Positions 38,143 to 62,640 of a stretch of 64,000 nucleotides of DNA are shown piece after piece. Below the pieces are notes generated by a model, which was not told the origin of the DNA, did no database searches, and saw only the letters and a list, made by a program, of their open reading frames with translations. This DNA comes from Gemmatimonadota bacterium. GTDB lineage: Bacteria; Gemmatimonadota; Gemmatimonadetes; Palauibacterales; Palauibacteraceae. Where the stretch lies: the NCBI GenBank assembly GCA_963666735.1, contig OY762926.1, forward strand, positions 3,584,001-3,648,000, in the 5' to 3' direction. Positions within the stretch are counted from its first letter, which is position 1. Every line of letters starts with the position of its first letter. A program made the position numbers and the translations under genes.

Positions 38143-38355
38143 CGCGGGGCTTACACTAAAGGCTGTGCCGGTTCTCCTGCGTCAGTCCGACGATTCGCTC
38201 AACCGATCCACGCCGCGATTCGCGACCGGGCCGCGTAAGCCCTGACACACCCGCCTCGGCACCCGCCAGACTACCCAGACGGCGATGATGTTGCGTTGAG
38301 GTGCTGCGGTATCGCTACGTGTCGTGACATGCACAACTCCACCAATGGGAGCGCC

Positions 38356-39066
38356 ATGATCGCCTATTGCCTCGCGGACGTGTTCAACCTCGAACTCTGG
38401 CCTCGCCACCGCCTGCCGGTGCAGCTCGCGGTTGAAGATGGCCTTCGCGACCTCGTCGGTCAGGTGAACTCCGCAGTGCCATCGGCCACCGAGGTCACGA
38501 TCCGCCTCTACGGCGGGTGGCATCGAGAGACGCTCAAAGCACCGGTCGACATCCGGCACATGATGGAGCGAGCCATCGAAAACAACCCCAAGAGATACCG
38601 GGCACAGAGAATTCGGGTTCAGCTTGCCGACCATCCCATCTGGGATCCGGGCACACCCCTCCTGCGTTCGCTTCGCGACTCGCCGCTGATGCGCGTACAC
38701 GCCCAGGTGACCCCATCGAAGCAGTGCTTCTCTCCGGCCACTTGCACGTCCGAAGCGCTTCGCAGCTGGTGTACGGGAACCTGTCCCGAGTCACGTTGTC
38801 CCGTGACGCTACGGCAGATTGCCCACCGCACTCGCCAGAAGATGGTGGATACGTTGCTCACGGCCGACGCGATGGCGATAATTAAAGACCGCCTTGCCCA
38901 CGCCGTCGTTCTTGCGAGCGACGATAGCGACATGATCCCGGCGCTGCTCGCGCTGTCGGCCTCCGACATCCAGCTCACTCATCTTCGCCGCCACGTCGCT
39001 GGTGGTTCCGTGGGCATGTATGATTCCGTATTCGACGAAACCGGTACGCACATCAGGAACTGGTAA
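38356..39066 (+). CDS. NYN/LabA-like PIN-fold nuclease with Cys-rich insert
   Basis: N-terminal LADVFN, RLYGGW, QKMVDTLL.AD, LASDDSDMIP; insert CFSPATC..WCTGTCPESRC. Confidence 0.75.
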   Translation: MIAYCLADVFNLELWPRHRLPVQLAVEDGLRDLVGQVNSAVPSATEVTIRLYGGWHRETLKAPVDIRHMMERAIENNPKRYRAQRIRVQLADHPIWDPGTPLLRSLRDSPLMRVHAQVTPSKQCFSPATCTSEALRSWCTGTCPESRCPVTLRQIAHRTRQKMVDTLLTADAMAIIKDRLAHAVVLASDDSDMIPALLALSASDIQLTHLRRHVAGGSVGMYDSVFDETGTHIRNW

Positions 39067-39069
39067 TCC

Positions 39070-41334
39070 ATGGACCGATTTGCGGAAATCAAGCGCGACA
39101 TCGCTCTCTTCGCCGACCCCGGTTCGGAAGTGATGGTCGAGGGCGAGCTCCTGCTATGGCAAAAGGATGGCATCGAACAGGGTGCCAGGCTGACGCAGCG
39201 CCCCGGCGATTTCCCGGACGTTAAGGTCGAGGGAGGGCAGGCGATGCCGTATAGGACCTTCCTCGCCAGCTCTCATCTAGCCGACCTCGGCAGCTTGGCC
39301 GAGTTCATGCTCAAAACCATTCCGCGATTGGACCACTACGTCGAAACGCGCGCCGGCGCGACCGGCGAGGACTCCCCAACCGCATCGTCCGCCGAACGCC
39401 AAAACGCGGACAAGCTCATAGCATCACTCGCCCGGAACCTGCCGTACGGCTCGACTCGCGTGATCCTTGTGCAAGGCGCGGCGGGGTCCGGCAAGACGAT
39501 GGTCCTGAAGAACATGACCTTGGCTCAGGCCGGGAGATACCACACCCGATCTGCGGACTCGCTCTTCTTTTACATTGACGCGCAGGGGCGCGCGCTGTCA
39601 CGTCTTGACGATGCGATGGCTCGCGATCTTCAAGACCTTCGGTCGCGCTTCTCGTACAGCGCCGTTCCTGTTCTTGTCCGACGTGGGCTCCTGGTACCGG
39701 TCATCGATGGCTTTGACGAACTGTTGGGGAGCGGCGGTTACGACGAGGCGTTCTCTTCGCTGGCCGCTTTCATCGCGCGGCTGGAGGGAAACGGTGCCGT
39801 GATTGCCTCGGCTCGCTCTACTTTTTTTGACTACAACGCCTTCCGCCAGAACGCGGAGAGATACGCACACGATGGCAAGCTCAACTACGAGGTTGCGTCG
39901 GTAGACATCGAACCCTGGACGGATGCCGACGCGGACGAACTCGTGGCAAAAGCCGGTGATCCGGATCTCCTGACGGACTTCCGGCGCTTCCGGGGCACGC
40001 TGGATGAATCAAACCGGGCCCTGCTCAGAAAACCGTTCTACGTGTCGCGGATCGCGGCTCTCTTGACGGACGGCCGCCAGCTCGATTCGCATGAGGCGAT
40101 GCTCGACACGCTAGTCAACGCCTTCCTCGAGCGAGAGCGCGAGAAAGCCCAAGGTAGAGATGGCAATCCACTGCTCGACGTGAACGGCCATCGCCGGCTC
40201 TTGGTCATGCTCGCGGAGGAAATGTGGTGGCTGGAGGCGCGCCGACTCGACTTGGAGACGGTTCGGACGGTAGCGGAACTAGTGATGGATGAACTGGGCG
40301 TACCAGTCGATTCGGCGTGGCAGATCATCGAACGGATGCCATTCTATGGGTTGCTTCGCACGAGTGGCACGGGTGTCGGGAACCTGCGGTTCGAACATGA
40401 GATGTTCTATGGATACTTCCTAGCCGATGCCCTCAAGCGATGCATAGAGGGAGAGCGCGGAGAGCTTCGGCGGTTCTTGGCGCGCTCGGTGATCGACGAG
40501 TCCGTGGTGGATCAAGTCATTGCCCTGTATGACGGAGACGTGGATGCCTGCACGGACGCGGCGGTCAAGATATGTGGTGTCCTGCGGCGAGGGTTGGGCG
40601 ACAGCGTGGCTCGGCAAAATGGCGGTCGCTTCGTAGCACGGGCGATCAAGATCGGCGGGCGGCTGCGGAACGGGGTCAAGCTGAAGCATCTCTATTTCGA
40701 CCAGGATGATTTCGGTCAAGCGGTTCTGACGGAGCCGCAGTTTCAGAACTGCTACTTCGACCGCACAGACTTCACAGGCCTCAAGATGGTAAGACCGGGA
40801 TTCAGGGAGTGCACGATTCAGATGCCCAAACTGAGTCTGAATGGCACGCGGCTGGCAGAGGCGGATCCGGAGCTAGCCGACATGATGACGGGTGTCGAGA
40901 TCATCTCAAATGGCCATCGGGCCGGAGAACCGCCCACAAGGATTTACGCGCCTGAGCAGGTAAGGGAGGTCTTGATTCGATTGGGGATGAGGGGTGAGGA
41001 GAGCGGCGAGACGGGACCCAAGTACAATGACCGGCAGCGAGACCGCATACGATTGGTTGAGCGATTCCTCCTGAAAATGGAGCGCCGCTTCTACGTAGCA
41101 GCGGAGGATTTCGGTCGCCTCGGCTTGGCCGGTAGTCCTGAGTGGGACACCGTGTACGGCCTGCTCAAAGAATGTGGAATGACGAGAGAGGAGCGGCGGC
41201 CGATGTCCGGCCCGAGCAAGCCGCTGGTCCGCCTAAGCTACCCCGCAACCGTCATCCGGAGCGGCGAGAATACGGAAGACGGCCGGCATCCAGAAGTCCA
41301 GCGCTTCTGGCAGGAATTGTTGAACGCGAGATGA
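39070..41334 (+). CDS. NACHT/STAND NTPase with pentapeptide-like repeats
   Basis: Walker A GAAGSGKT, Walker B VIDGFDEL, ASAR sensor, FEHEMFYGYFLA wHTH motif, then FDQDDF/FQNCYFDRTDF/FRECTI repeats. Confidence 0.8.
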   Translation: MDRFAEIKRDIALFADPGSEVMVEGELLLWQKDGIEQGARLTQRPGDFPDVKVEGGQAMPYRTFLASSHLADLGSLAEFMLKTIPRLDHYVETRAGATGEDSPTASSAERQNADKLIASLARNLPYGSTRVILVQGAAGSGKTMVLKNMTLAQAGRYHTRSADSLFFYIDAQGRALSRLDDAMARDLQDLRSRFSYSAVPVLVRRGLLVPVIDGFDELLGSGGYDEAFSSLAAFIARLEGNGAVIASARSTFFDYNAFRQNAERYAHDGKLNYEVASVDIEPWTDADADELVAKAGDPDLLTDFRRFRGTLDESNRALLRKPFYVSRIAALLTDGRQLDSHEAMLDTLVNAFLEREREKAQGRDGNPLLDVNGHRRLLVMLAEEMWWLEARRLDLETVRTVAELVMDELGVPVDSAWQIIERMPFYGLLRTSGTGVGNLRFEHEMFYGYFLADALKRCIEGERGELRRFLARSVIDESVVDQVIALYDGDVDACTDAAVKICGVLRRGLGDSVARQNGGRFVARAIKIGGRLRNGVKLKHLYFDQDDFGQAVLTEPQFQNCYFDRTDFTGLKMVRPGFRECTIQMPKLSLNGTRLAEADPELADMMTGVEIISNGHRAGEPPTRIYAPEQVREVLIRLGMRGEESGETGPKYNDRQRDRIRLVERFLLKMERRFYVAAEDFGRLGLAGSPEWDTVYGLLKECGMTREERRPMSGPSKPLVRLSYPATVIRSGENTEDGRHPEVQRFWQELLNAR

Positions 41335-41352
41335 TTCCCCGGCGTCACGAGG

Positions 41353-41519
41353 CTACAAGCCGAAGTGGATCTCGCCGCGGCCGAGCGATTCGACGCCGAC
41401 CTCCCGTAGACCGCGCTGGATACGCTCTGCGAGCCAATGTGCGCGGTGATACCTGAGAGTCTTGCAGTCTCCATCGGTCAGGTAAACCGTGTTGAGTTGC
41501 TGCGTGATGCAGTGCAGTT
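41353..41519 (-). pseudogene. Detached 3' fragment of the IS-interrupted nuclease gene
   Basis: After removing the IS and one TSD the frame continues QLHCITQQLNTVYLTDGDCKTLRYHRAHWLAERIQRGLREVGVESLGRGEIHFGL*. Confidence 0.8.
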
Positions 41520-41524
41520 GTGAC

Positions 41525-43262
41525 CCCGGATCCTGCGATCATGGGCACGAGGCTGGTCCGGGAGGGCGGCCCGCATCCGGGCCGCGGAGGCCGTGACGAT
41601 AGCGAGAGCATAGTGTTGGACTATGGAAAAGCACCATCCGGGGCCCTACGTTCAGAGGGACTGGACAAGAGTTCACCCCGGAACGGAGGACACCCGAATG
41701 GTGCGTGGAAACGACTATACCGGATCGCGCACGCACGTGCAAGGATCGCCGGCGGCGCCGGGGGTCCGCGGGGGCGGCGGACGGATCACCGACGCGGGCG
41801 GCCTGGTCGTGGTCCGGAGGCTGTGGGACGCGCTGGGGCTGGGCCGTTGGATCGACGACCGGACCGGGAACGTCCCCGGCCGCTACCGGCCGTCGCTGAT
41901 GGTCGAGTTGTGGGTGGCGCTGCTCCTGTACGGCGGCGGGGTGATGGACGACCTGCCGCTTCTCGAGCGGCGGGGGGTACGCCGCATCTTCGGCTGGAGG
42001 CGGGTGCCGCACCCGGCCACGTTCGGGCGCTGGCTGCGGCGCTCGGCCGCGGTGATGTCCCCCCTGCTCGACGAGCTTCTGTGGCGGATGGTGCGGCGGC
42101 GCTGGGAGATGGCCGGCGGGGCGCCCCGGTCGGCGACGGTCGTCATGGACTCGACCGTCGTGGTGCGCTACGGGCTGAGACAGGCCGGGGCGGAGAAGGG
42201 CTACAATCCGAAGAAGCCGGGCCGTCCCTCGCACCATCCGCTGCTGGCCTACGTCTTGGAGACGGGCGACTGCCTCGGGGTGCGCTGGCGGCCGGGCAAC
42301 GCGCACACGGCCGGGGGAGCCGAGGCGTGGCTGGCCGGGCTGGTGGCCCGCCTGAGGGAGGCGGGGGTGCGGGACATCACCGTGCGGCTGGACAAGGGGT
42401 TCTTCTCCAAGCGCATCGCGGCGAGCATGGAGGAGCTCGGCGTCTCCTATCTGCTCAAGGTGCCGCGGTACGGCTGGCTCGACGGCTTCCGGGGCGCCTG
42501 GGAGACGGCCACCGCCGACGGGGCCGGGGACCGGGAGCTGAGGACCGCCTCCGGCGAGCTGTGGGGGACGCGGCTTCTCTCGGTCGAGAGGCGGAGACGG
42601 ACCGGCCCCGCGGAGGGGGAGCTCGATCTCGAGGCGTGGGAGACCGCGATGAGCGCCGACGTTCTGACCAACATCCGGGGCATCGGCCCCATCGAGGCGT
42701 GGCGCGCCTACAACGCGGGCGCGGTCGTCGAGCAGCGGATCGAGGAGTTGGGCCAGCTTTCGGCCGGGCGCACCGCGGTGGACGATCTGGGCGGAAACGC
42801 CCTCCTGTGGGGCCTCGCCGCGCTCGCCTACCAGCTCCTCCACATCCTGCGCGCGAACTGCCTCGGCCGTCGGTGGCGGGTCGTACAGCCGCGCGGCATC
42901 CGGCTGCGCCTGCTGCGCGCCCCGGCCAGGATCACCTCCCACGCCCGCCGAACCTCGCTCGGGTTCGCGCGCGGCGAACCGGCCCTCGGCCTCCCGCGGC
43001 GGGCGCTCCGCACCATCGAGAACGGCCTCCCGCCGCCCGCGCCCGCCTGACCGACCCCGGACCCGGCCTTGCGAAGGCGCCGCGCGGCGGCGCCCCGTTC
43101 CCGTGTCTCCGCGCGCCGCCCGGGGTCCCTCCCGAACCCCGCCGGCCCCCCACCGAGGCCCGGTCCGGCCCCGAAAACGCCACCACCCGCGCCAAGTCGC
43201 CACAGCCGCAGATCATAACCGCGCCTCCGGCCGTCCGACTATGCGCCAACGCAGGATCCGGG
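41525..43262 (+). mobile_element. IS1380-family insertion sequence
   Basis: Perfect 13-bp IRs CCCGGATCCTGCG (41525-41537) and CGCAGGATCCGGG (43250-43262); 5-bp direct repeat GTGAC at 41520-41524 and 43263-43267. Confidence 0.9.
41698..43050 (+). CDS. IS1380-family DDE transposase
   Basis: ITDAGGL, MDST, GYNPKKPGRPSHHPL, RPGNAH, VRLDKGF, YNAGAVVEQRIEE; GGAGG before ATG 41698. Confidence 0.88.
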   Translation: MVRGNDYTGSRTHVQGSPAAPGVRGGGGRITDAGGLVVVRRLWDALGLGRWIDDRTGNVPGRYRPSLMVELWVALLLYGGGVMDDLPLLERRGVRRIFGWRRVPHPATFGRWLRRSAAVMSPLLDELLWRMVRRRWEMAGGAPRSATVVMDSTVVVRYGLRQAGAEKGYNPKKPGRPSHHPLLAYVLETGDCLGVRWRPGNAHTAGGAEAWLAGLVARLREAGVRDITVRLDKGFFSKRIAASMEELGVSYLLKVPRYGWLDGFRGAWETATADGAGDRELRTASGELWGTRLLSVERRRRTGPAEGELDLEAWETAMSADVLTNIRGIGPIEAWRAYNAGAVVEQRIEELGQLSAGRTAVDDLGGNALLWGLAALAYQLLHILRANCLGRRWRVVQPRGIRLRLLRAPARITSHARRTSLGFARGEPALGLPRRALRTIENGLPPPAPA

Positions 43263-44076
43263 GTGACAAATCACTGAGGTTCCACCAGCTGATTCGTATG
43301 AAGCTGATAGCCGCGAAGATGTGACGCCGTCCCTCTCGTATCCCCTCTGAGGAGTCATCAAAAATCTGTTGGTGGATGCGCTCTGCGAGAGAGACGTGTT
43401 CCTCCCGCAGGACATTGAGGACAGGCGACCCGTGCTCAAAGCGCACCGGCCAGTCCGGCGAAAGACAATCTGTCAGGTCTACAACTAGGGCACCACCGTG
43501 GAAGCGCTTACGTACGACACCGTCGTCCCGTTTGAGCAACAGCTGCTTCGCTGCCTTCGAGACCATGTTGCGGACGTGGCCAAGACTCTCGGGTCGCTTC
43601 ACTTCCACGGAATATTGCTTCGTGCTCTCCGTGATTATGACATCTGGACTCTTCCCGTCCTTCTTGAGCTCTACGCGGCCGGGTGCCGTTCCGCTCGCGG
43701 CAATCATGGCGATGGCCCAAAGTTCGCTCTGCGCCCGATAAGCCGCGTGCGGGGTCAGCCCAAGGCGGCCGCCGATTGCATCTCGGAAGGCTGTGATGAT
43801 CGGGCGCGGCTTGCAGGGGCCAAGCATGTTGCCGATTACCCAGAAATTCTGCGCGTCGCGAACCGCATGGGCGATCCGTACCAGATCTACACGCGAGCCC
43901 GAAAAAGCGCCGGACGGCCTAACGGATCGTAGTACGCGGACGGTCTCCGCCACGCGGCTGCTCCCGGATACGGGGATCCCCGCCCAGCGCTTGATCTTGC
44001 CTATCGTGTCCTCCAGACGGTCGGCAAGGAGCGGCATGGCATCCGGGGTAAGGTGTCTGTTACTCGTCGGGGTCAT
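43263..44076 (-). pseudogene. Putative PD-(D/E)xK nuclease, 5' part, interrupted by IS
   Basis: SELW...SPDVII..YSVEVKRP motif; the C-terminus in the ORF track is IS-derived read-through. Confidence 0.65.
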
Positions 44077-44124
44077 TAGAGGCAGCTTGCATCTCGTTGG
44101 AGACGTGGCGGTGCCAGGGCGGAC

Positions 44125-47100
44125 TTAGGCGGACTTGAGGTCGTCGGAGACTTCGGCCAGCGCCGTGTCGATGCCGGCCCGTTCCTCGTCCGAGATGTCG
44201 CCGGTGAGTCTGACGGAGACCTCGAAGCCGAGTTCGGCGGAGCCGGCGGCGGCGAGGAGGTTCGGGGCCCTGTCGGCCAGTTCCTGTAGCTGTCCCACAT
44301 CGAGCTTGGCGGCGGCGGGCGGCGGGGGGGGTGTTAGAGGGCTGTCCTGGCGGACCCGTATCTTGAGTTGTGTGGCTTGATCGTACTCGCAGTCGGGGTT
44401 GGCGCTTCCGTCCGCGAGCACGAGCCAATGTGCGTTGATCGCGGCGCGGATTCCCTCGCGCACGAGCCCCCACGGAAGATTCGTCGAGTGTTCCTGCGAG
44501 AGCGCTTGGGCGAGGGTCAGGCCGGTCGTGGCGTCGTCGCGCCAGGCGGCGGCCTGGATGGCTTCGGATCGAAGATCTTGCGGCGTCAACGGGTCCGGTG
44601 GCGGGCGGAGTGTCGCCTTGTCGTTCAGCGCTCCTGCGGGCACTGGCTCCTTCCAGGAGGTAGCGGGGGGATTCGTAAGCCAGACGGTGCCCGACTCCAC
44701 CGCCTGCCCCACAGTTTCCAGCACCGTGTCGGCGGGGCACGCCGGAATCGTGACCATATCGTCGTAGTGGTCGCGGGGGATCTTCGCGACATGCCCGCCC
44801 GCGAAGTAGTTCAGGAGCGTCGCGACCGGCAGGACCGAGCCGGTTTCGCCGCTGTCGTCGTCCGTCCACAGGCTGGGCAGCGTCCCGGGAGCGAGCAGCG
44901 GTTCCGGCAGCCGGGTGAGTTCCGCCTTCTCCGGCAGGACGATCTCCAGCGCCTCGTCACTCGCCGCCTCGGCCTCCACCGGTTCGCGCCACCGCGTGCG
45001 GAAGCTGCCGTCGGGCCGTCTCAGCCGGGCGACGAACAGGCCCTCGCGGACCCCGGCCATTACCGTATCGGTGACGAGCTTTGGCCTCAATACCTTCGGG
45101 AGCCTTGGATGCCGGGCGAAGGCCCCGGCCAACTGGCTCGCGAAACGCGCGTCGTCTCCCTCCTGCCAGAGGTCGTACGGTCCGCCGGGAAGGAGGGCCT
45201 CGGCGTTCACCGGCGTGTCGGTGAGGCGCGTCTTGTCGTGTCCCTTGATCTCCTCAAAAAGCGGCTGTCCGCTGGCGGGGAGCTTGAAGGCGTGAACGCT
45301 GTTCTCCGCGTCCACCGTCACGACGATCCCGTAGGCCTGTCGAATGACGCTCGGCAACTCCGCCTGGGTGTTGGTCTTCTTGCGCCGGAGGCGTTGCGAC
45401 CGCACCGGATCCACCGTTTGGGTCGCGAGCTGCGATTCCACGTCCTCCCAGCCGAGCAGCGCCCGCACTCGGGTGCGCGCCGCATCCAGGCCCTCGCGCG
45501 AAGGCACGGCGATGACCACCGCGTTGCGGTTCACGCGGGGGCGGTTCGGCCCCGTGGTCTCGTCGAGAAACCGCTTCGCGATTCTGCTCGGTTTGCCCGA
45601 CTCCGACGCCGCGTCGGGGCCGAGGATCACGTACCGGAAGCTGCCGTCGTCGGCGACATCTCCGGGCGACTTCGGCAGCACGTGCACGCCTGCCCCGGCG
45701 GCTGCCGCGCCACTCGTAAGGGGCTTCGTCTTGCGGATGAAATCTCCCAGCCGTGTCTCCACCATGTCTGCGGTGACTCGGTCCTTGCAGGCCTGGTCGT
45801 GCATCTGTTTCAGGTTGGGCGCGTTGCCCAGACGCCACGACTTGGGGAGGCCCCGCTCCGCGCCGTAACCGGCCGCGTCGTCCCCGATGTCGGCGTCGTC
45901 GAGGAACCAGGAGGTTTCGCGCCAGCGGAGCAGCCCCTTCTCCAGTTCGATTCTGTCCGGCCCTGAGCCGCCCACGAGCCGGAGCAGCTCAGGCGTTTGC
46001 GCCTTCTGGCCCACCGGCTGCGAGCAGAGAAAGACGGCTGCGACGGCCTGCTCCGCCTCGCGCGCCGGCTGGAGCGCCGCGCACTCACGCTGCACATCCC
46101 GCGCCTTGTCCAGTTCGGCCTCGAGCAGGGGAACCCATTCCGTCTTCTTGCCCTGCACGTCGTCCGTCGAGGCGACGCCCGCGAGTTCCCGCACGGCCTC
46201 GGAGACGTTGGCGGAATCGGGCTCGGCGAGGAGGACGGCGGGACCGACGAGCGGACTCCGGTCCCATGACTCCGCGTCCCGGAGCGCGGTGGCGAGCGTG
46301 CGCAGGATGCCCCGCGTGCGCTGGAAGCTCGCGATCTGCGTCCAGCGACTGTACAGCGCATCCGTCATGTCCGGGTGGAACGGGAAGCTGTGCAGGAACC
46401 GCTCTTCGGCCTCCTTCTTTCCGCGCCGTGTCGTTTCGTCGAGCTTGGCGATGCCCTTCACGATCCCGATCACATGCGGCTTGTATCCCTGCGGATCGCG
46501 GATGCTCTCGGGCTCGAAGAAGCGGCGGCGCAGGACTTCCGCCACATCCTCTCTCTGCACCGGCTGCACGCCCTCCTCGCGCTGCCGGCGAAAGATGTCC
46601 GCGATATCGCGCAGGATCCTTCTGCCCAGGGTATCGGTCGTTCGCGCCGGGTCCGTGGCGAGGATGGACGCGACGATCGCTGCCCGGTCGATCTTCGCCA
46701 CGGCCTGCGTGAGGTACTGGAAGAAGTTCCGCAGGTGCGCCACCCACTCCTCGGCCACGCCCGCCTTGGCATGGGCGTACATCATGACCTCGTCCAGAAG
46801 GATGAGCGTGGCCGTCCCGTCCCGTTGCTGTCGCTCGATCAGCTTGACGAGGAGGGGCTCCGCAGGCGGCGTGTCGCGCTCCTCGTCTTCGTTGTTCGCG
46901 TGCAGCAGGCGGAGACCGTCCGCCCCGGCAAGTTGGAAGGCGAGCACGCTCCAAGGATGCTTGAGCGCGCGCCGCTCTCCGTCGGGGGCGCGCACACCCT
47001 CGATGCCCTTTTCCACATCGATCTTGTCGAAGCAGAGCGCGGCCATCGCGGCGCGGGGAAGGTGGGAGTCCGCGTGCTCGCGGAACTCCCGAACCGCGGC

Positions 47101-47430
47101 GATGTCCGGCAGCCCGCCGGGATCGTGGAACAGGTGATGGAGGGTGATGAGGGTATGCGTCTTGCCGCCGCCGTACGTCATCTCAAGCTGGCGGACGGCC
47201 TTGCTGTTCTGCCCCGCCAGTCGCCCCGCGACGTCCCGCACAAGCTCCCGCAGTGCGTGCGTGGGGTAGGTCAGTGCGAAGAACTTCTCTGGATCCTCGT
47301 AGATGGGCCGCTTCCCCGCCTCCGTGACCACCTCGTGCAGGTCGGCGGCGAACTCGGCGAGCGAGAGCTCCCCGGAACGTAGTTCCGGCTTGAGACGAAC
47401 GATCTCGTGCCAAGGCGCGGGGGTGGGCAT
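44125..47430 (-). CDS. DUF499 family AAA+ ATPase (HmaC-like)
   Basis: EFAADL, FFALTYPT, YGGGKTHTL, LILLDE, FPFHP, FQRTRGILR. Confidence 0.88.
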   Translation of the reverse strand: MPTPAPWHEIVRLKPELRSGELSLAEFAADLHEVVTEAGKRPIYEDPEKFFALTYPTHALRELVRDVAGRLAGQNSKAVRQLEMTYGGGKTHTLITLHHLFHDPGGLPDIAAVREFREHADSHLPRAAMAALCFDKIDVEKGIEGVRAPDGERRALKHPWSVLAFQLAGADGLRLLHANNEDEERDTPPAEPLLVKLIERQQRDGTATLILLDEVMMYAHAKAGVAEEWVAHLRNFFQYLTQAVAKIDRAAIVASILATDPARTTDTLGRRILRDIADIFRRQREEGVQPVQREDVAEVLRRRFFEPESIRDPQGYKPHVIGIVKGIAKLDETTRRGKKEAEERFLHSFPFHPDMTDALYSRWTQIASFQRTRGILRTLATALRDAESWDRSPLVGPAVLLAEPDSANVSEAVRELAGVASTDDVQGKKTEWVPLLEAELDKARDVQRECAALQPAREAEQAVAAVFLCSQPVGQKAQTPELLRLVGGSGPDRIELEKGLLRWRETSWFLDDADIGDDAAGYGAERGLPKSWRLGNAPNLKQMHDQACKDRVTADMVETRLGDFIRKTKPLTSGAAAAGAGVHVLPKSPGDVADDGSFRYVILGPDAASESGKPSRIAKRFLDETTGPNRPRVNRNAVVIAVPSREGLDAARTRVRALLGWEDVESQLATQTVDPVRSQRLRRKKTNTQAELPSVIRQAYGIVVTVDAENSVHAFKLPASGQPLFEEIKGHDKTRLTDTPVNAEALLPGGPYDLWQEGDDARFASQLAGAFARHPRLPKVLRPKLVTDTVMAGVREGLFVARLRRPDGSFRTRWREPVEAEAASDEALEIVLPEKAELTRLPEPLLAPGTLPSLWTDDDSGETGSVLPVATLLNYFAGGHVAKIPRDHYDDMVTIPACPADTVLETVGQAVESGTVWLTNPPATSWKEPVPAGALNDKATLRPPPDPLTPQDLRSEAIQAAAWRDDATTGLTLAQALSQEHSTNLPWGLVREGIRAAINAHWLVLADGSANPDCEYDQATQLKIRVRQDSPLTPPPPPAAAKLDVGQLQELADRAPNLLAAAGSAELGFEVSVRLTGDISDEERAGIDTALAEVSDDLKSA

Positions 47431-47435
47431 GGTGA

Positions 47436-47909
47436 CTATCCGTTGGGACACAGGTCGGTTCGGTTGAGCAGGTCCCGTCGCCGCTTCACCGCCTTCCCGC
47501 TCTCACAGGTCGGATAGATGCGTCCGCGGGGGCCCGCGATCAGAGCTGGGTTCTTGAAATCGGCGCGTAGATCCCCATCGCGGGAGTAGAGGAGCCGGGC
47601 ACGGCTCACCCGCGCCAGCGCTATGATATGCTCGTCCTTCGACCTGCAAAGCCGTTTTGCGCGTACGGCCGACGTTTCCTGTTCGACCGTTTCGTCAGGG
47701 AATCGTCTCACCCGGCCGCCAAGGATCCCTTCCTTAACCCAAGCGCGGAACTTGCCGTTCTCGGAGAGTTCCTCCAGTAGCTTGCCACCGACGACGAGAC
47801 GGGCGCGCGGCGTTTCGAGCCAGTCAAAAAACTGTTCTCCCGGTGGAGCGCGGTCCGGAGTAAACACTTCCCCCAGAACGTTGACGTCGATGATTGCGCA
47901 CATGTTCAA
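47436..47909 (-). CDS. PIN-domain protein
   Basis: IIDVNV, DEHIIALA, LLYSRDGDL acidic PIN motifs; overlaps the upstream ATPase stop. Confidence 0.7.
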   Translation of the reverse strand: MNMCAIIDVNVLGEVFTPDRAPPGEQFFDWLETPRARLVVGGKLLEELSENGKFRAWVKEGILGGRVRRFPDETVEQETSAVRAKRLCRSKDEHIIALARVSRARLLYSRDGDLRADFKNPALIAGPRGRIYPTCESGKAVKRRRDLLNRTDLCPNG

Positions 47910-49321
47910 AGCCCTAGGGATCTGCGAGTCTCGATTCTAAAAAACTCGCGGTAGCCGTCCGGTATCGCGCCATCTTGCGCCACCAAGTTGCCGTTGGCGT
48001 CCCACGCCAGCGAGTGGATCGTCACCGAGAGGTTCCGGCGTTTGAAGTACAGGATCGACACGTCTTCAGGTCTCAGCTTGCTCCGACCATCGCGCACGTC
48101 CATCCGAATGCGATCCATGAGGTGGTCGCTGTGCGTCTCGACGAGGAGTTGGCGTCCTCGAGCGGCCACATCGCAGAACAAGCTGCCGAGTGCGGCTTGT
48201 GCGCTAGGGTGAAGATGGACCTCTGGCTGTTGTAACAAGAACATCTCCGGTCCCTGCGGGCGAAGAAGTTCGGTAACGATGGGGAGCACCTGGCTTACTC
48301 CGTAACCGACGTCGATTATGTTCCGGCGGGGTCCCTTGGCGCGTGTGCCAAACTTCCTGATTTGAATCTGAAAGGGTCCGCCGACCTGCCCACCGAGTGT
48401 CTTGATGGCGATCTCATCGAAAAGGCCTGCCTCCTGCCCGAACGTTTCAAGCGACGACTTGAGGGATTCCCATGTGCGGTCGTTCCGGCGTGCAGCGCTC
48501 GACAGAAACATGGGGATGTGCTCGCCCTCCGCATCTTCAAGCGGATGCGACGGATCGTACGTTCTACGTGGGTGTGAGCGAACAGGCGCGCTCGAAAACG
48601 GTCGTGCGGAGCGCCCCTCGATCGGCGGCTCAAGGCCGAAGAGTTCCTCAATATCCTCCTTGGTCGGTGAGACTCTAGTACCGCTTGACGCGTCGGGTTG
48701 CGCGGATTCCGATACGGTCCTGCCGAGGAAATATCGAACCAAGAATCCGAGAGGAGGTAGCCTGCGTTGCTGGATGTCCGAGAGTGCAGGCGCCAGACCC
48801 CACGATCCGCCTCTGAGGTCTGGACGCTTGAGTTCCCACTTCCCATTACGTGTTGAGAACCGAAGCGAGACGTCCACGCCGTCGCCGGGGATGCAGGCCT
48901 CCACCCACGCGCTCTTGCTTTCGATGCGCCGTACGCTCGGGACGGGAGCGGCACCGTCGCGGCGGAACGTGGCGCGAAACCGGAATGCATGGTTCCGCGC
49001 GGTTGGGATCGGCCTATCTTCATGTTGCCGCGCTCCCCCTTGGTCTTCCCAGGAAAGCTCTGCTCCGAACTCCACCGCACGGCCGCCTCTGCCACCGCGG
49101 TGATGCGCGATCTCATCGAAACTACCGAGATCATACGGCGGCTCTTTGAAGTCGGGAAACCGGTCGTGGAACGCAACGTCCCAGAGGACCTGTAGGAGCG
49201 CGAGGAACGACGTTTTGCCCGTGCTGTTTTCTCCTACTAGGAGCGTGAGCGGTGCAAGACGGGCCGTCTGCTTCCGCCGGAAACACCGGAAATCGGACAA
49301 GCTGAGTTCGTTAATGTGCAT
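47906..49321 (-). CDS. ABC/SMC-like ATPase (AAA_15/AAA_21 type)
   Basis: DFRCF, GENSTGKTS, GYGVSQVLP signature, QQPEVHLHP, ETHSDH. Confidence 0.85.
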   Translation of the reverse strand: MHINELSLSDFRCFRRKQTARLAPLTLLVGENSTGKTSFLALLQVLWDVAFHDRFPDFKEPPYDLGSFDEIAHHRGGRGGRAVEFGAELSWEDQGGARQHEDRPIPTARNHAFRFRATFRRDGAAPVPSVRRIESKSAWVEACIPGDGVDVSLRFSTRNGKWELKRPDLRGGSWGLAPALSDIQQRRLPPLGFLVRYFLGRTVSESAQPDASSGTRVSPTKEDIEELFGLEPPIEGRSARPFSSAPVRSHPRRTYDPSHPLEDAEGEHIPMFLSSAARRNDRTWESLKSSLETFGQEAGLFDEIAIKTLGGQVGGPFQIQIRKFGTRAKGPRRNIIDVGYGVSQVLPIVTELLRPQGPEMFLLQQPEVHLHPSAQAALGSLFCDVAARGRQLLVETHSDHLMDRIRMDVRDGRSKLRPEDVSILYFKRRNLSVTIHSLAWDANGNLVAQDGAIPDGYREFFRIETRRSLGL

Positions 49322-49456
49322 CGTACCGACCAGACTCCTTGGGTCGTCGTGGACGCAAGGTTACGCCCACGGCAGGGGTGGCGGAAGGCTGGCCACCTCG
49401 CCGTGCATGAACGGACGCATATGGTTCGGGACCGAGGGCGGGTCGGCACGCGTCAC

Positions 49457-52400
49457 TCAGAACAGGGATCCCTGTTCTCGTGCCGTTGAAGTCTCCGTAG
49501 GGCCCCCGCCGCGCAGGTGGTTCTGCACCGATTCCAGCAGGGCCCGCTCCTCGGGGCCTCCCTCTGCTAGTTCGATAATGGCCTGCACAACGCTGGCAAA
49601 CAGTTCGTGCTTCCACAGCCCGCGGTCGCTGAGGTAGCTGTTGACGCGGGCTTGCTCCCCAGTTTTCCAGAGTTGCATGACCTTGTGCACACAGTCGATG
49701 AGCGCCGGGGGCGCGCCATCCGGCGTCGGGTGACCCAGCCGGGAGCCGCGCCGTTGGTTCCACCCCTTGAGGCGGACCTCGCTGCCCGATGTCTGCGGTG
49801 CCTCCTCGCCTTCCTCGTCGGACGCAGGAGCCGAGGCCCTCCCACCGCGGACGAGTAGGTTGTGCCTGCTCGCCAGATCGGCATCGGACAGATTGCACGA
49901 GAGCGCGTACAGGATGCACGCGCCGGCGGGGGCTACCTCCAGACCGAAATCGTTCCGGTGCAGCAGGTAGTAGGTCGTGACGTCGTCCAGCTCCGTCGCC
50001 GAACCGTTCCGCTGGGAAAGCAGCTGGCCTACGACGAAACCGACCACCATGCGTCGAACGTGTCGCAGGAAGTCCGCCACGGTCAGAACGTCACCCGGTC
50101 GGTCGGCTCGCTTGACGACGGGATGTCGGCTGAACGCCTCCAAAGCCGGCCCCGTGGCCGACCATACGAAGTCGGGTCCGCGAATCCCCGCATCCCAGAA
50201 GTCGCGCAGCCGCTGAGTGATCTTCTCCCGCATTTCGGTCAGGACCGGGCCCTCCCAGCCTTGCGTGGCGGTCATCGGCCGCTTGCGGCACACAAGCCAA
50301 ATCGATGACGCAAGCGCGGCGGAGGACAGCGCGCGCTGCCGAGTCTGCATTTCGGTCTGGATCGGCCACGAACCCGTCACCACGAACCCTGCCCGGATCA
50401 ACGCCGACACAAGCGTTTCCCACGCATCGGGGCTCTTGTTCGCAAACACGATGACCAGCCGGCCATCGTCGCCAAGAGCCTCGTGGAAGCCACGGAATGC
50501 CCGCGCCATCCCGTCTTCGTAGTTGTTCTTGGAAGCTTCCCGATCTCCCTCGAACCGGCTCGCGTCGTCGATAAGCTCGCCGTCGGAAGCGCCGGACTCC
50601 CACTTTGGACCCAAGGGGTCCGCGAAGGCCGCATCCGTCGCGGATGAGAAACCGTGCAGCACACGACGAAGCCAGACTTGAAAGAAGTCCGTCAAGTCCG
50701 AATACGGGATCGCATCATAGTACGGCGGGTCGGTGCAGATGACGTCGAGCCCGTTCGGCTGGGCGGCGATTGCGCTCCGGGTCTCAACTTCCACGGAGGG
50801 TGCATGCGACCCGGCGGGCAGGGCATGATCGGTCCAGCGTGCGACCCAATCAAGCATGCCCTTGAACCCGCCGGTTGTGGCCGACAGCGGATTCACTTCG
50901 CAATAATCCCACACCATCGGGAGCGCGAACCGTGCGAATGTTTGGCGGAGCTTTTCGCCACTATTGTGCCACGAGCAGATCGCGCTGCTGTAGTCGGTCA
51001 GCTTGCTGAACGCGCACGCCAGATATGCCGTAAACGCCTCCCGCCACTCGACCGGGTAGCCATCCATCTCGGTCGCAACGGCGCGGATCTCGCGCCCGAA
51101 CGTTCCCAGGGCAAGCAGCTGGCGGCGCGTGAACAGTTTGTCCCAAGAGTCGAAGCCATAGCGCGCCACCCGCATGCCGAGGGCCTCCTCGTGCGCAGTC
51201 GGTTCGTTGGGCATGCCGAAAGGGAAGTCCGAGTACAGCGCCTCAAGCTCGCTCTTGCCAATACTCGCGGCTTCGATGTCTTGCTCGGTCGGATGTCGGT
51301 ACTCCTTACCGGTCTGTCCATCCACCACCACGGCCGTCATCCGGGCGCCAAGCCGTCCCGACCGGCCTTGAGCGCGCAACTCGGCCATCCTGGTCACGGC
51401 CGCGCAGTTCGGGCACTCGACCCCGCTCGCGCTCATGGTGCCCGCGCCGAGCACCTGGTCGTGCTGCCGCTGCTGAGCGACCGATCCCGATCCCTTCGGC
51501 ACGTCCGTCGCCACGGCGAACTCGACCCCGCGTCCATCGGCTCGCTTCGTCAGCGTCAAGAGAACCCGCTTCACTGGGGCCGTCTTCTTGCACAGCCAGC
51601 GCGTCTTGAGGAGCGGGATCTCGGCTCGGCAGCCGCCGCACTCGGTCGTGCGCGCCCACAGATAGGCTACGACCGGCTTGGCCACCCAGCGCGGGTTAGC
51701 TTCGTCTTTCAAGTAGGCCTCGTCAAAACCGGCGTTCAGCGCATCGACCGATACACGCCCGTCCGAAGCCGGATCGAGTAGACGGGGCTCTCGCCGCTTG
51801 TATGGCTTGGGTTCCGCCCGCGACGCCCGTGCTCGGCCCCTGCGACGCACGGGCTCGAACTCGGCATAGGCCGGATATCGTGTGGCCAACTGCCGCCTGA
51901 CGCCTTCAAGTACGCGCAGGCTCCACGCCCGGACGTGCCAGGCAAAGTCGGCCTTGGCGTTGGCGTCGTCTCGAAGCAGCGAGGAGGAAAGCTGTACGTC
52001 GCCGCCATCGCGGTGTCCCAGCTCGGCGAGTGCGTTTCGGATCTGGACCTTCGTGCGCGCGCCGCGGGATTTGACGAGCGCGGTGGCGAAGTGCCGGTCG
52101 CGCAGCGCAAACTCGGGCAGCGCCCTCTCCTCCCGTCCCACAAGTTTCGGGTAGTGAAGCGTACAGCGAAGGATGAACCACGCGACCGGATTCAGGTCGG
52201 AAGCGAACGTCTTGCACCCCAGCCGCATCGCCTCCAGCGGAATCGCGCCCCCACCCGCGAAGGGATCCAGCACCCTCGGCGCTCGCCCACCGAACGCCTC
52301 TCGTATCTCCTCCCGCAGACGGTCCAACTCGGGGTCGGTTTCCCGCCCCCAGTGCAGCACCCCACCCGCCGTCTCCTTGAGCTTGGGATCCTCTGCGCCG

Positions 52401-52639
52401 CCTTTGAGCTTCTTGGGCACCAGCCGTCCTGCGATACGCCGCCCCAGTTCGCGCCGACCCTCGTCTTCACCGGGATCGGGCAACAGCGTGGCCAGCAGCA
52501 TCGCCCGGCTCGCCGCCAGCGGCCTCCGCGCCGGCCAGATGTGAAGCGTGGAGATGTGACCGTGCCGCACATTCTTCTCGTGCACCGAATCCAGCGAAAT
52601 CTGCCGTAGCGGCAGCGTCGTCTCGGCTAGGCGTCTCAT
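49457..52639 (-). CDS. DUF1156 adenine-specific DNA methyltransferase (HmaB-like)
   Basis: LHIWPARRPL, DPFAGGGAIP, zinc ribbon, TDPPYYD. Confidence 0.9.
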   Translation of the reverse strand: MRRLAETTLPLRQISLDSVHEKNVRHGHISTLHIWPARRPLAASRAMLLATLLPDPGEDEGRRELGRRIAGRLVPKKLKGGAEDPKLKETAGGVLHWGRETDPELDRLREEIREAFGGRAPRVLDPFAGGGAIPLEAMRLGCKTFASDLNPVAWFILRCTLHYPKLVGREERALPEFALRDRHFATALVKSRGARTKVQIRNALAELGHRDGGDVQLSSSLLRDDANAKADFAWHVRAWSLRVLEGVRRQLATRYPAYAEFEPVRRRGRARASRAEPKPYKRREPRLLDPASDGRVSVDALNAGFDEAYLKDEANPRWVAKPVVAYLWARTTECGGCRAEIPLLKTRWLCKKTAPVKRVLLTLTKRADGRGVEFAVATDVPKGSGSVAQQRQHDQVLGAGTMSASGVECPNCAAVTRMAELRAQGRSGRLGARMTAVVVDGQTGKEYRHPTEQDIEAASIGKSELEALYSDFPFGMPNEPTAHEEALGMRVARYGFDSWDKLFTRRQLLALGTFGREIRAVATEMDGYPVEWREAFTAYLACAFSKLTDYSSAICSWHNSGEKLRQTFARFALPMVWDYCEVNPLSATTGGFKGMLDWVARWTDHALPAGSHAPSVEVETRSAIAAQPNGLDVICTDPPYYDAIPYSDLTDFFQVWLRRVLHGFSSATDAAFADPLGPKWESGASDGELIDDASRFEGDREASKNNYEDGMARAFRGFHEALGDDGRLVIVFANKSPDAWETLVSALIRAGFVVTGSWPIQTEMQTRQRALSSAALASSIWLVCRKRPMTATQGWEGPVLTEMREKITQRLRDFWDAGIRGPDFVWSATGPALEAFSRHPVVKRADRPGDVLTVADFLRHVRRMVVGFVVGQLLSQRNGSATELDDVTTYYLLHRNDFGLEVAPAGACILYALSCNLSDADLASRHNLLVRGGRASAPASDEEGEEAPQTSGSEVRLKGWNQRRGSRLGHPTPDGAPPALIDCVHKVMQLWKTGEQARVNSYLSDRGLWKHELFASVVQAIIELAEGGPEERALLESVQNHLRGGGPTETSTAREQGSLF

Positions 52640-53799
52640 CACGAGGCCTTTTGGTAGGTTGATTCGGCGTCGCTGGTCCAGCCTCGAACGGTATCCGCCG
52701 CCTCCTGCGGAGCGGCGACGATGTCTATCTCCTCTACAACTTTTTCTCCGTGACCGTACCCGCTCGCCACCCCTCGCCGCTCCACCCGCGTCCGCCGGCT
52801 CAGGATGCGCTTCGTTGGCCACGCCTCACGGATCGCTTGCTCGCACGTTTCGGCCGTACGCTCCTTCGCTCCGCAGCGGACCAGAACGACTCCGTCCTCT
52901 CGCAGATGCCTCTTGGCCCTTTGGAACACCGTTGTCATGAGCGAACGGTATTCCCGCAGGTTCGTGTGTTTCTGCGTGCGCCGCCAATTCTTCCGCAGCG
53001 GTTCGCCCAGAATCCAAAGACGTATCCAATGGTCGTTCCAATAATCCGTCACGTCATGGTACGGAGGCGAGGTGATCAACAGCTTCGCGCGACATGGCCC
53101 GAGCTGCGCGAGTTTGCGGCGTGCATCACCGAGGAACGGTTTGGACGGCGCCATCGCGGGGAGGCCGAAAGCGTATCTTCGTGCAATTCGATCCGTCAGG
53201 AACGCGACCGGGTCGGTCGCGGGCGGCGTCATTAGCCCTCGCGCGGTCCACCAGCGCACGGCATAGGACGCCGAGTGCGCGACGGTCGGCGAGAAACGGT
53301 TCGACAGCCCCTTCGGATAACTGTCCTGCATGTGCAGGGCCACGAACGCCATCAGCGTCCGGTCCACGCGGGAGCTTCGCCAGTCGAGCTCACGCCGGGC
53401 GGCCTTGAGGAATCCTCGGACGTCAGGTGCCCAAGCCATGGTCTCAAAACGGCTTCGGGATCGGCGGTCGACCGGGCGGACAGCTCTTCCGATCGCCCGG
53501 ACACGCGCCAATACGCGCTTGGGCTGCTGAGCCGGCAACAACTTCGCCGCCGTGAAGAGCCACGCCACCGGCTGAATATCCACCGCGACTGCGGGCCTGC
53601 CGAGGGCCGCCGCCACGAAGGGGGCGTTCCCGCGGCCCGAAAACGGGTCCAGAACCATGTCTCCTGGCGCGGTGAAGGTCGTGACCGCCCGGGTCACGAA
53701 GGGTGCCGGGAACATCGCATAGTATCTGCCCAAGCCGTACCAACGGTGCTCCGCCGTGTTCGCAGGCCATGGAAGGCGGGAGATGCCGTAGGTCTTCAT
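52639..53799 (-). CDS. Amino-DNA methyltransferase (SPPY, likely N4-cytosine)
   Basis: YYAMFP, DPFSGRG motif I precedes ITSPPY motif IV. Confidence 0.8.
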   Translation of the reverse strand: MKTYGISRLPWPANTAEHRWYGLGRYYAMFPAPFVTRAVTTFTAPGDMVLDPFSGRGNAPFVAAALGRPAVAVDIQPVAWLFTAAKLLPAQQPKRVLARVRAIGRAVRPVDRRSRSRFETMAWAPDVRGFLKAARRELDWRSSRVDRTLMAFVALHMQDSYPKGLSNRFSPTVAHSASYAVRWWTARGLMTPPATDPVAFLTDRIARRYAFGLPAMAPSKPFLGDARRKLAQLGPCRAKLLITSPPYHDVTDYWNDHWIRLWILGEPLRKNWRRTQKHTNLREYRSLMTTVFQRAKRHLREDGVVLVRCGAKERTAETCEQAIREAWPTKRILSRRTRVERRGVASGYGHGEKVVEEIDIVAAPQEAADTVRGWTSDAESTYQKAS

Positions 53800-55094
53800 G
53801 ATATGCCGGCAAGGCTCTCGATGATGGCCGCGCCGGCCGCGAACGGAATCGCCGCCTTGGCGTGCGCGCGCCGAAGCGGGAGGAATTCGTGGCGGCCCAC
53901 GCCCAGCCGCGCGGCCGTGGCAATCGCTTCATCGCAAACCCTGGGTCTCGCCGCGTTGGTCAGCGGTCGGTCCGCCTCGGGTTGTGCCAGATTGAGTAGA
54001 AGCCTCTGTCCCTCGCTCGTCTTTACGACCAGCGGGCGACCGAAATACGTGATCTCACCCCAGGGTTGATCCGTGTCTCGAGCGATGATGTTCTCCCGGA
54101 TGTAGTCGTCGTCGGGAAGCCACGCGGTTCCCAAGGGAATGCGAGAGTCCGGCGCCGGAGCCTCGTCAAGCTCGGAGAAGTGCTGAACGAAGGCTCCCGT
54201 CTTGATGGCGGACATGACCAGGAGCCTCCCCGGCGACAGTCGCTCATCGATCCGCCGCAGTTCTCGAAGTACCCCCGGCTGGAGTGCCGCGATCGTGCTG
54301 AAAGCCGCCAGCGGCCCGTCGAGGACAAACGCGATCCGACGCAGCGCCCGTCGCCCGTTCTCGATCTTCACCAGTTCCCGCAGCAGGTTCATCAACGTCA
54401 GGATCTCAAGTGCTTCGCGAACTCGGCCGTGAGCGTCACCGCACGGCTGCTCATCGCTGAAGATTTCATGCGCTCGGAGCGCGTCCGACAACAACACGCT
54501 GGCACCGCATTCTTCGCAGTTGGATTCCATCGCCCCCTCGGGCGGAGTCAGGGGGCGTGAATGGCACCGCCGGTTGGGACACCGAATCGGTCGGGGATCT
54601 TCGAGCAGAGCATGAAGCGTGGCGGCCAGATTCTCTCCGCCGTAGTGCCCCTCTTCCAACGTCGTTTGCACTTCCTGTCGAAACCAATCCCGAGACGATT
54701 CTCCGTCCACCGACCTCGCGTTGCGTCCGGGGAGGGCCAACTGCAGCGTGCTGGCTTGCTCTGTTTCCCGGAGCTGCACGGGATCCGTTGCACCACTCGC
54801 AGGCAGTCGAGGCAAGGACTCCAAGCGCTCGACATCAATCCGGACAACCGCGATCGAAATCAGCCCGGCTTCGGTGCACGGAAGCCGCGCCGGAATCCGG
54901 TGGTAGATGCTCGAGCCGTCGAGAGCGACGACGATTGGGCGCGGCTCTCCATCCCGAAATGACGCGAACGGCGGTAGTGGCTTTGGCGGGACGTTCACAC
55001 CGCGCTGGAGCCGAGCGCCGAACGCGTCGATGATGCGCCGTCGTTCGAGGTCCTCCAACGCCGAGAATCCGGCGCGCTCATTCGGGTAGGGCAT
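53796..55094 (-). CDS. NurA-like nuclease with zinc ribbon
   Basis: VALDGS and VLDGPL acidic motifs, CPNRRC..CEEC, C-terminal RAHAKA; follows HerA. Confidence 0.78.
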   Translation of the reverse strand: MPYPNERAGFSALEDLERRRIIDAFGARLQRGVNVPPKPLPPFASFRDGEPRPIVVALDGSSIYHRIPARLPCTEAGLISIAVVRIDVERLESLPRLPASGATDPVQLRETEQASTLQLALPGRNARSVDGESSRDWFRQEVQTTLEEGHYGGENLAATLHALLEDPRPIRCPNRRCHSRPLTPPEGAMESNCEECGASVLLSDALRAHEIFSDEQPCGDAHGRVREALEILTLMNLLRELVKIENGRRALRRIAFVLDGPLAAFSTIAALQPGVLRELRRIDERLSPGRLLVMSAIKTGAFVQHFSELDEAPAPDSRIPLGTAWLPDDDYIRENIIARDTDQPWGEITYFGRPLVVKTSEGQRLLLNLAQPEADRPLTNAARPRVCDEAIATAARLGVGRHEFLPLRRAHAKAAIPFAAGAAIIESLAGIS

Positions 55095-55099
55095 TCGCG

Positions 55100-62582: not shown

Positions 62583-62640
62583 CGCGTAAGCTCGCCCCTT
62601 TCCGACACTGAGTCAAGCGGGCATGCACGAGTCGCCGGAC

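What the first reader, a model, noticed from the sequence alone, without database searches (positions are those of the whole stretch)
38356..41334. Two-gene NYN nuclease + NACHT/pentapeptide NTPase module, a candidate split NLR-like anti-phage system
Seen: a NYN/PIN-fold gene with a Cys-rich insert lies 3 bp upstream of a STAND NTPase. The ~130-aa N-terminus of the NTPase shows no recognisable enzyme motif, and its C-terminus has pentapeptide-like repeats. The pair sits at the left edge of the island. Known: Avs/bNACHT proteins usually carry the effector fused N-terminally. Inference: here the effector RNase is supplied in trans and activated by the NACHT sensor, and the pentapeptide solenoid (a DNA mimic in Qnr/MfpA) may bind phage DNA-binding proteins.
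Basis: partly seen in the sequence, partly recalled or inferred. Interest (0 to 1): 0.78.

Follow-up and report, generated by a model that had tools for sequence, protein, structure and literature searches.

The report
NLR-like sensor with docked NYN nuclease
Two neighbouring bacterial genes, a relative of animal NLR immune sensors and a separate predicted RNA-cutting enzyme that is modelled to dock onto it, travel together in defence islands and are probably an unnamed, untested anti-phage system.

Summary
The pair is real. A 236-aa NYN nuclease gene (four catalytic Asp invariant in 38 of 38 relatives) lies 3 bp before a 754-aa NACHT protein that folds like closed NLRC4/NOD2. It sits at the edge of a 24.6-kb Hma defence island; in one congener the same slot holds an Abi_C gene. 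Coupling is tight: all 15 NYN hits in 702 sampled genomes have the NACHT gene directly downstream, and 44 of 70 NACHT loci have NYN upstream. Most NYN-less NACHTs form one clade, four of them with a fused HEPN-like domain. A complex model (0.63 against 0.00 for controls) docks NYN on the winged-helix domain, not the N-terminus, and those residues change in the NYN-less clade (one event). The DNA-mimic idea is unsupported: only about 13 pentapeptides, near-neutral, followed by a further domain. No defined PADLOC/NCBIfam family or paper found, but key supplementary tables were unreadable, and NLR-like sensors with separate effectors are known. This scan reported this kind of pair twice before on other DNA. 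Verdict: new variant of bacterial NACHT defence, function untested.

The parts
38356..39066 (+). NYN (PIN-like) predicted metal-dependent RNase, 236 aa (P0001); catalytic-type D8, D165, D190, D192
   Evidence: Pfam PF01936 E 2e-5; fold closest to MARF1 NYN, Z 12.4; four Asp 38 of 38
38725..38799 (+). Four-Cys insert (C124, C130, C143, C148), probable zinc site (inferred); optional in the family
   Evidence: Cys at these columns in 21-23 of 38 partner NYNs, gap in 15-17
39070..41334 (+). NACHT STAND NTPase, 754 aa (P0002)
   Evidence: Pfam PF05729 E 6e-8; AF2 pLDDT 88; Foldseek top NLRC4 4kxf E 5e-15
39070..39363 (+). N-terminal alpha/beta domain (aa 1-98), family-specific, no catalytic motif recognised
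   Evidence: No consistent Pfam, PDB-sequence or Atlas match; 353 representatives at 50% identity, nearly always at the start of the protein among the 150 listed
39442..39915 (+). Nucleotide-binding domain with intact Walker A (39475-39498) and DGFDE Walker B (39706-39720)
   Evidence: G139, G141, K142, D213-E217 invariant in 63 of 63
40156..40449 (+). Winged-helix domain of the NACHT module; predicted NYN docking surface (aa 384-404) and invariant H443
40669..40869 (+). Short pentapeptide beta-solenoid (about 13 repeats), candidate sensor
   Evidence: (6uv7 Z 9.7, rmsd 2.1, 89 aligned)
41014..41331 (+). Conserved C-terminal domain with helix-helix-helix-hairpin pattern, winged-helix-like (assignment weak)
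   Evidence: DSSP pattern; alignment A5; only weak PadR/Cdc6_C hits
38150..62740 (.). Accessory defence island carrying the pair, an IS, HmaC/HmaB/HmaA, PIN + ABC ATPase, HerA-NurA-like genes and methylases (context, not part of the module)

Best explanation
A two-gene, NLR-like abortive defence module. Shown by sequence and models: an intact NACHT switch protein and an intact NYN nuclease, inherited as a unit. Modelled: NYN docks on the resting (closed) NACHT, mainly on the winged-helix domain, with edge contacts on the nucleotide-binding domain and HD2. Inferred from how NLRs work: a phage protein, or a phage-perturbed host protein, is sensed by the solenoid/C-terminal region; nucleotide exchange swings the NBD away from WHD-HD2 and lets the protein oligomerise; this remodels the composite docking site and switches on NYN, which cuts cellular RNA and halts infection. 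Whether NYN is freed from restraint or clustered into an active form is open; I put it near even, slightly favouring release.
For: Coupling: 7 of 301 class genomes have the full-length NYN and the same 7 have the NACHT, adjacent; 8 of 8 NYN hits in 401 genomes of a second phylum have it downstream; 44 of 70 NACHT loci have NYN upstream; gap -11 to +50 nt in 37 of 39. Binding: score 0.63, best of 3 controls 0.00, runs agree in at least 72% of contacts, partner pLDDT at least 79; the mark was reached by 116 of 157 solved and 2 of 215 mismatched pairs. The modelled pair NACHT E384 / NYN R85 is conserved (36 of 37; 33 of 38) and E384 falls to 6 of 17 in NYN-less proteins; S/T397 is 35 of 37 against 0 of 17. 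Effector exchange: 4 NYN-less members carry a fused N-terminal domain with an invariant RxxxxH motif; a distant sister family has a RelA/SpoT gene downstream in 19 of 21 loci. Context: Hma island; Abi_C gene in the same slot in G120; defence genes near 11 of 18 scanned loci; patchy presence.
Against: No phenotype, expression or enzyme data. Fourteen rows of the NYN-less clade have neither NYN nor a fused domain, so the NACHT can persist alone. The interface-conservation signal is one evolutionary event, the background was not limited to surface residues, and a control clade that keeps NYN also scored p 0.002-0.005; a distant partnered subclade keeps only E384. Seven of 18 scanned loci showed no clear defence neighbour and no background rate was measured. 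The NYN protein HEC-09, embedded in Hma, gave no defence when tested (bioRxiv 10.1101/2024.01.29.577857, passages). NYN catalytic Asp are not in the modelled interface.
Confidence: 0.55

Rival explanations
1. The NACHT protein is a self-sufficient bNACHT01-like defence protein (effector hidden in its N- or C-terminal domain, or a recruited host factor), and NYN is an accessory booster or a brake bound to the closed state.
For: A supported clade (SH-aLRT 98, 18 rows) lacks NYN, 14 of them with no fused domain; L002 keeps an intact NACHT beside a NYN remnant; clade-14 bNACHTs defend without a discernible effector (PMC12169576, passage).
Against: NYN catalytic residues are invariant, which a pure brake would not need; the N-terminal domain has one invariant residue, a Phe, in 45 rows; RNase-type domains appear both fused and in trans.
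Confidence: 0.2
2. A toxin-antitoxin-like addiction or stress module: NYN is constitutively toxic, the NACHT neutralises it by binding, and the role is island maintenance or dormancy, not phage sensing.
For: Asymmetric loss: NYN without NACHT in 0 of 15 genome hits, NACHT without NYN repeatedly; overlapping or near-abutting genes; modelled direct binding.
Against: Three metagenome loci (L015, L053, L056) show NYN beside a NACHT split by a stop or frameshift, though these may be assembly errors; a 754-aa NTPase with invariant Walker motifs is costly for a mere antitoxin; the active site is not covered in the model.
Confidence: 0.15
3. A non-defence regulator: the NACHT with a C-terminal winged-helix-like domain controls transcription or RNA turnover with its NYN partner, and merely accumulates in insertion hotspots.
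For: Basic winged-helix-like C-terminal domain (mean net charge +3); defence and non-defence STAND clades are interspersed (PMC13581612, section 5); some copies lie among housekeeping genes.
Against: Very patchy presence (7 of 301; 8 of 401), exchange with Abi_C, and nesting in Hma, DISARM and RM loci; winged-helix assignment is weak.
Confidence: 0.1

Closest known systems
Bacterial NACHT / NLR-related anti-phage proteins (bNACHT; Kibby et al., bioRxiv 10.1101/2022.07.19.500537; sections 6 and 12 and passages read)
   Same: NACHT module with D[GAS]hDE signature, WHD histidine, C-terminal pentapeptide repeats plus a small C-terminal domain (their 'hybrid' type); RNase effectors including HEPN are listed.
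   Different: Their effectors are fused and the tested genes were only rarely in operons; NYN does not occur in the main text. Here the nuclease is a separate, tightly coupled gene. Their Table S1 and the Cell version could not be read, so the NACHT protein itself may be catalogued there.
CARD-NLR-like multi-gene systems (Lysobacter gasdermin and Pedobacter operons, bioRxiv 10.1101/2023.05.28.542683, passages; LypABC, PMC13236601, abstract only)
   Same: NLR-like ATPase with a non-enzymatic N-terminal domain and effectors on separate, exchangeable genes.
   Different: They signal through CARD-bearing proteases; here there are two genes, no protease, and the nuclease is modelled to bind the NTPase directly.
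Avs (antiviral STAND) families (PMC13581612; abstract, section 5, passages, 7 source-data files searched)
   Same: STAND sensor that oligomerises to activate an effector.
   Different: Mostly TPR-like sensors; NYN and pentapeptide are absent from the main text; no Avs profile hit. Its clade tables were too large to read.
Hma-embedded HEC-03 (ABC ATPase + PIN) and HEC-09 (NYN) (bioRxiv 10.1101/2024.01.29.577857, passages)
   Same: ATPase sensor paired with a separate PIN-fold RNase; found at Hma loci.
   Different: HEC-03 uses an ABC ATPase; HEC-09 is a single NYN gene with no defence seen; P0001 does not hit either profile (one distant partner NYN hits HEC-09 at E 0.007).

Membership tests
NACHT clade of STAND NTPases | Walker A plus D[GAS]hDE Walker B signature | tested here: met
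   GAAGSGKT and DGFDE; DGFDE invariant in 63 of 63; signature
NACHT clade of STAND NTPases | NBD-HD1-WHD-HD2 fold with conserved WHD histidine | tested here: met
   Top fold matches NLRC4, NOD2, NLRP3; H443 invariant; equivalence to NLRC4 H443 is inferred
bNACHT anti-phage proteins | C-terminal repeat sensor region | tested here: met
   Pentapeptide solenoid 534-600; sensing role not tested
bNACHT anti-phage proteins | Fused N-terminal enzymatic effector | tested here: inconclusive
   No family match for aa 1-98, but the domain was not folded and searched alone
bNACHT anti-phage proteins | NTP-dependent protection against phage | not testable with these tools
   needs plaque assays
NYN/PIN-like RNases | NYN fold with conserved acidic tetrad | tested here: met
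   PF01936 above cut-off; MARF1 NYN Z 12.4; D8, D165, D190, D192 38 of 38
NYN/PIN-like RNases | Metal-dependent RNA cleavage | not testable with these tools
   needs an in vitro assay
Avs1-21 | Match to an Avs profile, TPR-like sensor | tested here: inconclusive
   No Avs hit in PADLOC 2023 or NCBIfam 2026; model shows a beta-solenoid; newer Avs profiles not available here
CARD-NLR systems | CARD-bearing protease gene in the operon | tested here: not met
   No third conserved gene among ORFs of 91 loci clustered by BLASTP; pair flanked by variable genes
Hma system | Constant component of hmaABC loci | tested here: not met
   G120 has Hma genes at the same site with Abi_C in place of the pair; many copies of the pair lie by DISARM, RM or PARIS instead
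Qnr/MfpA DNA-mimic pentapeptide proteins | Long, acidic solenoid with free ends (features recalled, not from a call) | tested here: not met
   About 13 repeats, net charge -1 (family mean -1.1, range -7 to +4), embedded between domains; sequence likeness to MfpA is repeat-level only

The most novel reading that the evidence does not exclude
A bacterial NLR that carries its effector non-covalently on the winged-helix domain of the resting state, so that the NLR opening movement itself releases or licenses a nuclease with no N-terminal effector, adaptor or protease; the same NACHT lineage swaps between a docked NYN, a fused HEPN-like domain and no effector, with the docking surface changing accordingly.
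Probability: 0.3. Interest if true: 0.8.

Novelty: new variant of a known kind. Interest (0 to 1): 0.58.

Why it matters
NLRs across life are thought to signal through their N-terminal (rarely C-terminal) domains. A two-protein bacterial system in which the effector binds the switch module itself would be a minimal, testable case of another way to couple NLR opening to cell death, and would give a NYN nuclease a defence role where the tested HEC-09 showed none. The model names residues (E384, D394, T397; R85) that make the test direct.

Tried and rejected
No PADLOC or NCBIfam family for either protein beyond weak P-loop or repeat hits. Foldseek/PDB found nothing at E<=0.001 for NYN; the wider aligner did. 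No PDB sequence match for the NYN profile. Longer, fused NYN forms: none among 8000 candidates, weak evidence. The in-frame NYN-NACHT fusion in L011 looks, by eye against L007, like a recent small deletion or assembly error, so it is not used. No relatives found in plasmids or viral contigs. No tRNA, no island-end repeats, no + strand promoter match. No RNA holder listed. N-terminal domain: Atlas best 0.80, a lead only. Fused RxxxxH domain: no Pfam match, unnamed Atlas clusters, so 'HEPN-like' is my label from a recalled motif. Viral structure search gave one NLR-like protein and generic AAA hits. Matching contig lengths between the two homologue lists (33 of 85) is a rough proxy and not counted as evidence. 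The tree is the quick version; the careful search did not finish. Literature searches; none of the listings or passages seen describes a NYN + NACHT pair; two searches returned mostly unrelated papers.

Full report
Observation. Two + strand ORFs, 38356-39066 (236 aa, P0001) and 39070-41334 (754 aa, P0002), lie 3 bp apart. P0001 hits Pfam NYN (E 2e-5) and P0002 Pfam NACHT (E 6e-8), both above cut-off. Neither has a PADLOC or NCBIfam family. A public contig covers 37800-41647 without a difference, though it may be the source sample.

The nuclease. The AF2 model (pLDDT 91) is closest to MARF1 NYN (Z 12.4, rmsd 3.0, 140 aligned) and VPA0982 (Z 11.0). In 38 aligned partner NYNs D8, K162, D165, D190 and D192 are invariant; the four-Cys insert is present in 21-23 and missing in 15-17. 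So it is an intact predicted RNase and the insert is optional.

The NTPase. The model (pLDDT 88, pTM 0.85) matches autoinhibited NLRC4 best (E 5e-15, TM 0.41, against 0.26 for the active inflammasome chain), with NOD2 and NLRP3. Layout: N-terminal alpha/beta domain (1-98), NBD, HD1, WHD, HD2, a pentapeptide solenoid of about 13 repeats (534-600), and a C-terminal domain of about 105 aa with a winged-helix-like pattern that I could not confirm. Walker A and B residues and H443 are invariant in 63 of 63. The N-terminal domain has no family match; its profile finds 353 representatives, and among the 150 listed it nearly always starts the protein. The solenoid is short, near-neutral (mean -1.1) and enclosed, so a Qnr/MfpA-type DNA mimic is not supported (Qnr/MfpA features recalled).

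Coupling. From the NACHT side, 44 of 70 family loci (L001-L070) have NYN immediately upstream; the estimated gap is -11 to +50 nt in 37 of 39. Some of these loci are near-duplicates. Of the 26 without: 18 form one clade (SH-aLRT 98, quick tree) and L063 resembles a member of it; L023 and L057 have no upstream DNA; L005, L050, L051 and L059 lack the N-terminal part; L002 has an intact NACHT beside a NYN remnant. From the NYN side, 7 of 301 class genomes (own included) have a full-length match, the same 7 have the NACHT, adjacent, and none of 23 partial NYN hits does. In 401 genomes of a second phylum 8 of 8 NYN hits have the NACHT downstream. These sets overlap in part with L001-L011 and are not additive. 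Named relatives are Gemmatimonadota (L001, Ca. Palauibacter, 69%) and Acidobacteriota. No third conserved gene was found.

Effector exchange. Four members of the NYN-less clade (L064-L066, L068) carry about 250 extra N-terminal residues with an invariant RxxxxH motif, which I read as HEPN-like; Pfam does not confirm it. The other 14 have no visible effector. A distant family (L071-L091; hhalign probability 96%; NA-iREase2 + NACHT in the two scanned) has a RelA/SpoT gene downstream in 19 of 21 loci.

Complex. The model supports binding and does not show it: score 0.63, best of 3 controls 0.00, runs agree in at least 72% of contacts, partner pLDDT at least 79; the mark was reached by 116 of 157 solved and 2 of 215 mismatched pairs, counts that hold only roughly with my alignments. 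I saw no solved NACHT-NYN complex in the fold searches. NYN 78-87 and 96-101 touch NACHT 384-404 (WHD), with edges at 184-185, 222-233 (NBD) and 468, 506-511 (HD2). The N-terminal domain and the NYN catalytic Asp are not named in the interface. Comparing 37 partnered with 17 NYN-less proteins (near-duplicates and truncated rows left out): E384 36 against 6, Q/L388 35 against 0, D/E394 33 against 3, S/T397 35 against 0; NYN R85, modelled against E384, is 33 of 38. The 22 interface positions differ more than random positions (0 of 20000 draws). Against this: it is one evolutionary event; the background includes buried residues; of three control clades that keep NYN, the Cys-less one also scored p 0.002-0.005 and two did not; and a distant partnered subclade keeps E384 but not 388, 394 or 397.

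Context. The pair opens an island of about 24.6 kb (38150-62740). In 15 of 19 congeners the upstream oxidoreductase gene runs into DNA matching 62.7-66 kb; one has the pair, one (G120) has another island version, two have unidentified DNA. The island holds HmaC, HmaB, a SNF2 helicase in the HmaA position, PIN + ABC ATPase, HerA-NurA-like genes and methylases. In G120 the slot holds an Abi_C gene ahead of HmaC. Scanning 73 of 126 picked neighbour ORFs from 18 loci gave clear defence hits at 11 (DISARM, RM, GmrSD, PARIS, AbiJ); 7 had none, and no background rate was measured.

Mechanism. Shown: intact catalytic motifs, joint inheritance, defensive context. Modelled: NYN docked on the closed NACHT. 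Inferred from NLR biology: sensing triggers nucleotide exchange, the NBD swings away from WHD-HD2, the composite site is remodelled, and NYN cuts RNA to abort infection (0.55). For release from restraint: NYN was never seen alone (0 of 15) while NACHT often is, and the site bridges parts that move. For clustering: the active site is uncovered, a fused HEPN-like variant would need dimerisation, and three metagenome loci show NYN beside a split NACHT. Rivals: self-sufficient NACHT with accessory NYN (0.2), addiction module (0.15), non-defence regulator (0.1).

Known systems. P0002 is a NACHT-clade member by signature and fold, and fits the 'hybrid' pentapeptide type of Kibby et al. (bioRxiv 10.1101/2022.07.19.500537; sections 6 and 12 and passages), whose main text has no NYN. 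NLR-like proteins with separate effectors exist, through proteases (bioRxiv 10.1101/2023.05.28.542683, passages; PMC13236601, abstract). ATPase + PIN pairs exist (HEC-03) and the NYN protein HEC-09 gave no defence (bioRxiv 10.1101/2024.01.29.577857, passages). The 2026 STAND survey has no NYN or pentapeptide in its main text or 7 readable source files (PMC13581612); its clade tables and Kibby's Table S1 could not be read and may list this family. Passages of PMC8195603, PMC10853773, PMC12169576, bioRxiv 10.1101/270033 and 10.64898/2026.09.04.749371 showed no such pair. This scan noted a NYN + NACHT pair on other DNA twice (e1-6772710, e1-4863911); these are unchecked notes, not support, and a sequence look-up did not link them to this family.

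Verdict. Real, conserved, unnamed in what I could search, untested: a new variant of bacterial NACHT defence. Interest 0.58.

Noticed in passing
L071-L091 (e.g. L077:5638-8706): Distant NACHT family (NA-iREase2 + NACHT, weak pentapeptide hit) with a RelA/SpoT-domain gene directly downstream in 19 of 21 loci; no strong PADLOC hit. A second candidate NLR with an effector in trans.
   Followed up: partly
L064:4870-5640, L065:1375-2085, L066:530-1237, L068:1740-2480: Unnamed domain of about 250 aa with invariant RxxxxHG fused ahead of the same NACHT family; Atlas finds unnamed clusters at 0.93-0.94.
   Followed up: partly
window 47436-49321 (-): ABC ATPase + PIN pair embedded between hmaB and hmaC; PADLOC NsnB, PDC-M55A and HEC-03B hits, HEC-03-like layout. 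Not matched in G120 or G263.
   Followed up: partly
window 52639-58561 (-): Dcm-type methylase, HerA, NurA-like and N6/N4 methylase genes between the SNF2 helicase and hmaB.
   Followed up: no
window 41520-43234: IS with a DDE_Tnp_1_4 transposase and inverted ends, right after the pair; two more full copies at 96-99% in the genome.
   Followed up: partly
window 43213-44076 (-): 287-aa ORF downstream of hmaC with no Pfam, PADLOC or NCBIfam hit; a match is present in G263.
   Followed up: no
L154:361-2002 (G120): Abi_C gene and a convergent 211-aa unknown gene fill the slot that holds the pair here.
   Followed up: partly
L011:5654-9256: NYN and NACHT in one reading frame, apparently through a small recent deletion; the same genome has a second, separate pair.
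   Followed up: partly
L042 and L048 upstream of the NACHT: JAB + ThiF fusion gene ahead of NYN-less NACHTs in two related loci.
   Followed up: no
window 62754-62996 (+): Phd/YefM antitoxin gene at the right island edge, with no obvious toxin gene after it.
   Followed up: no
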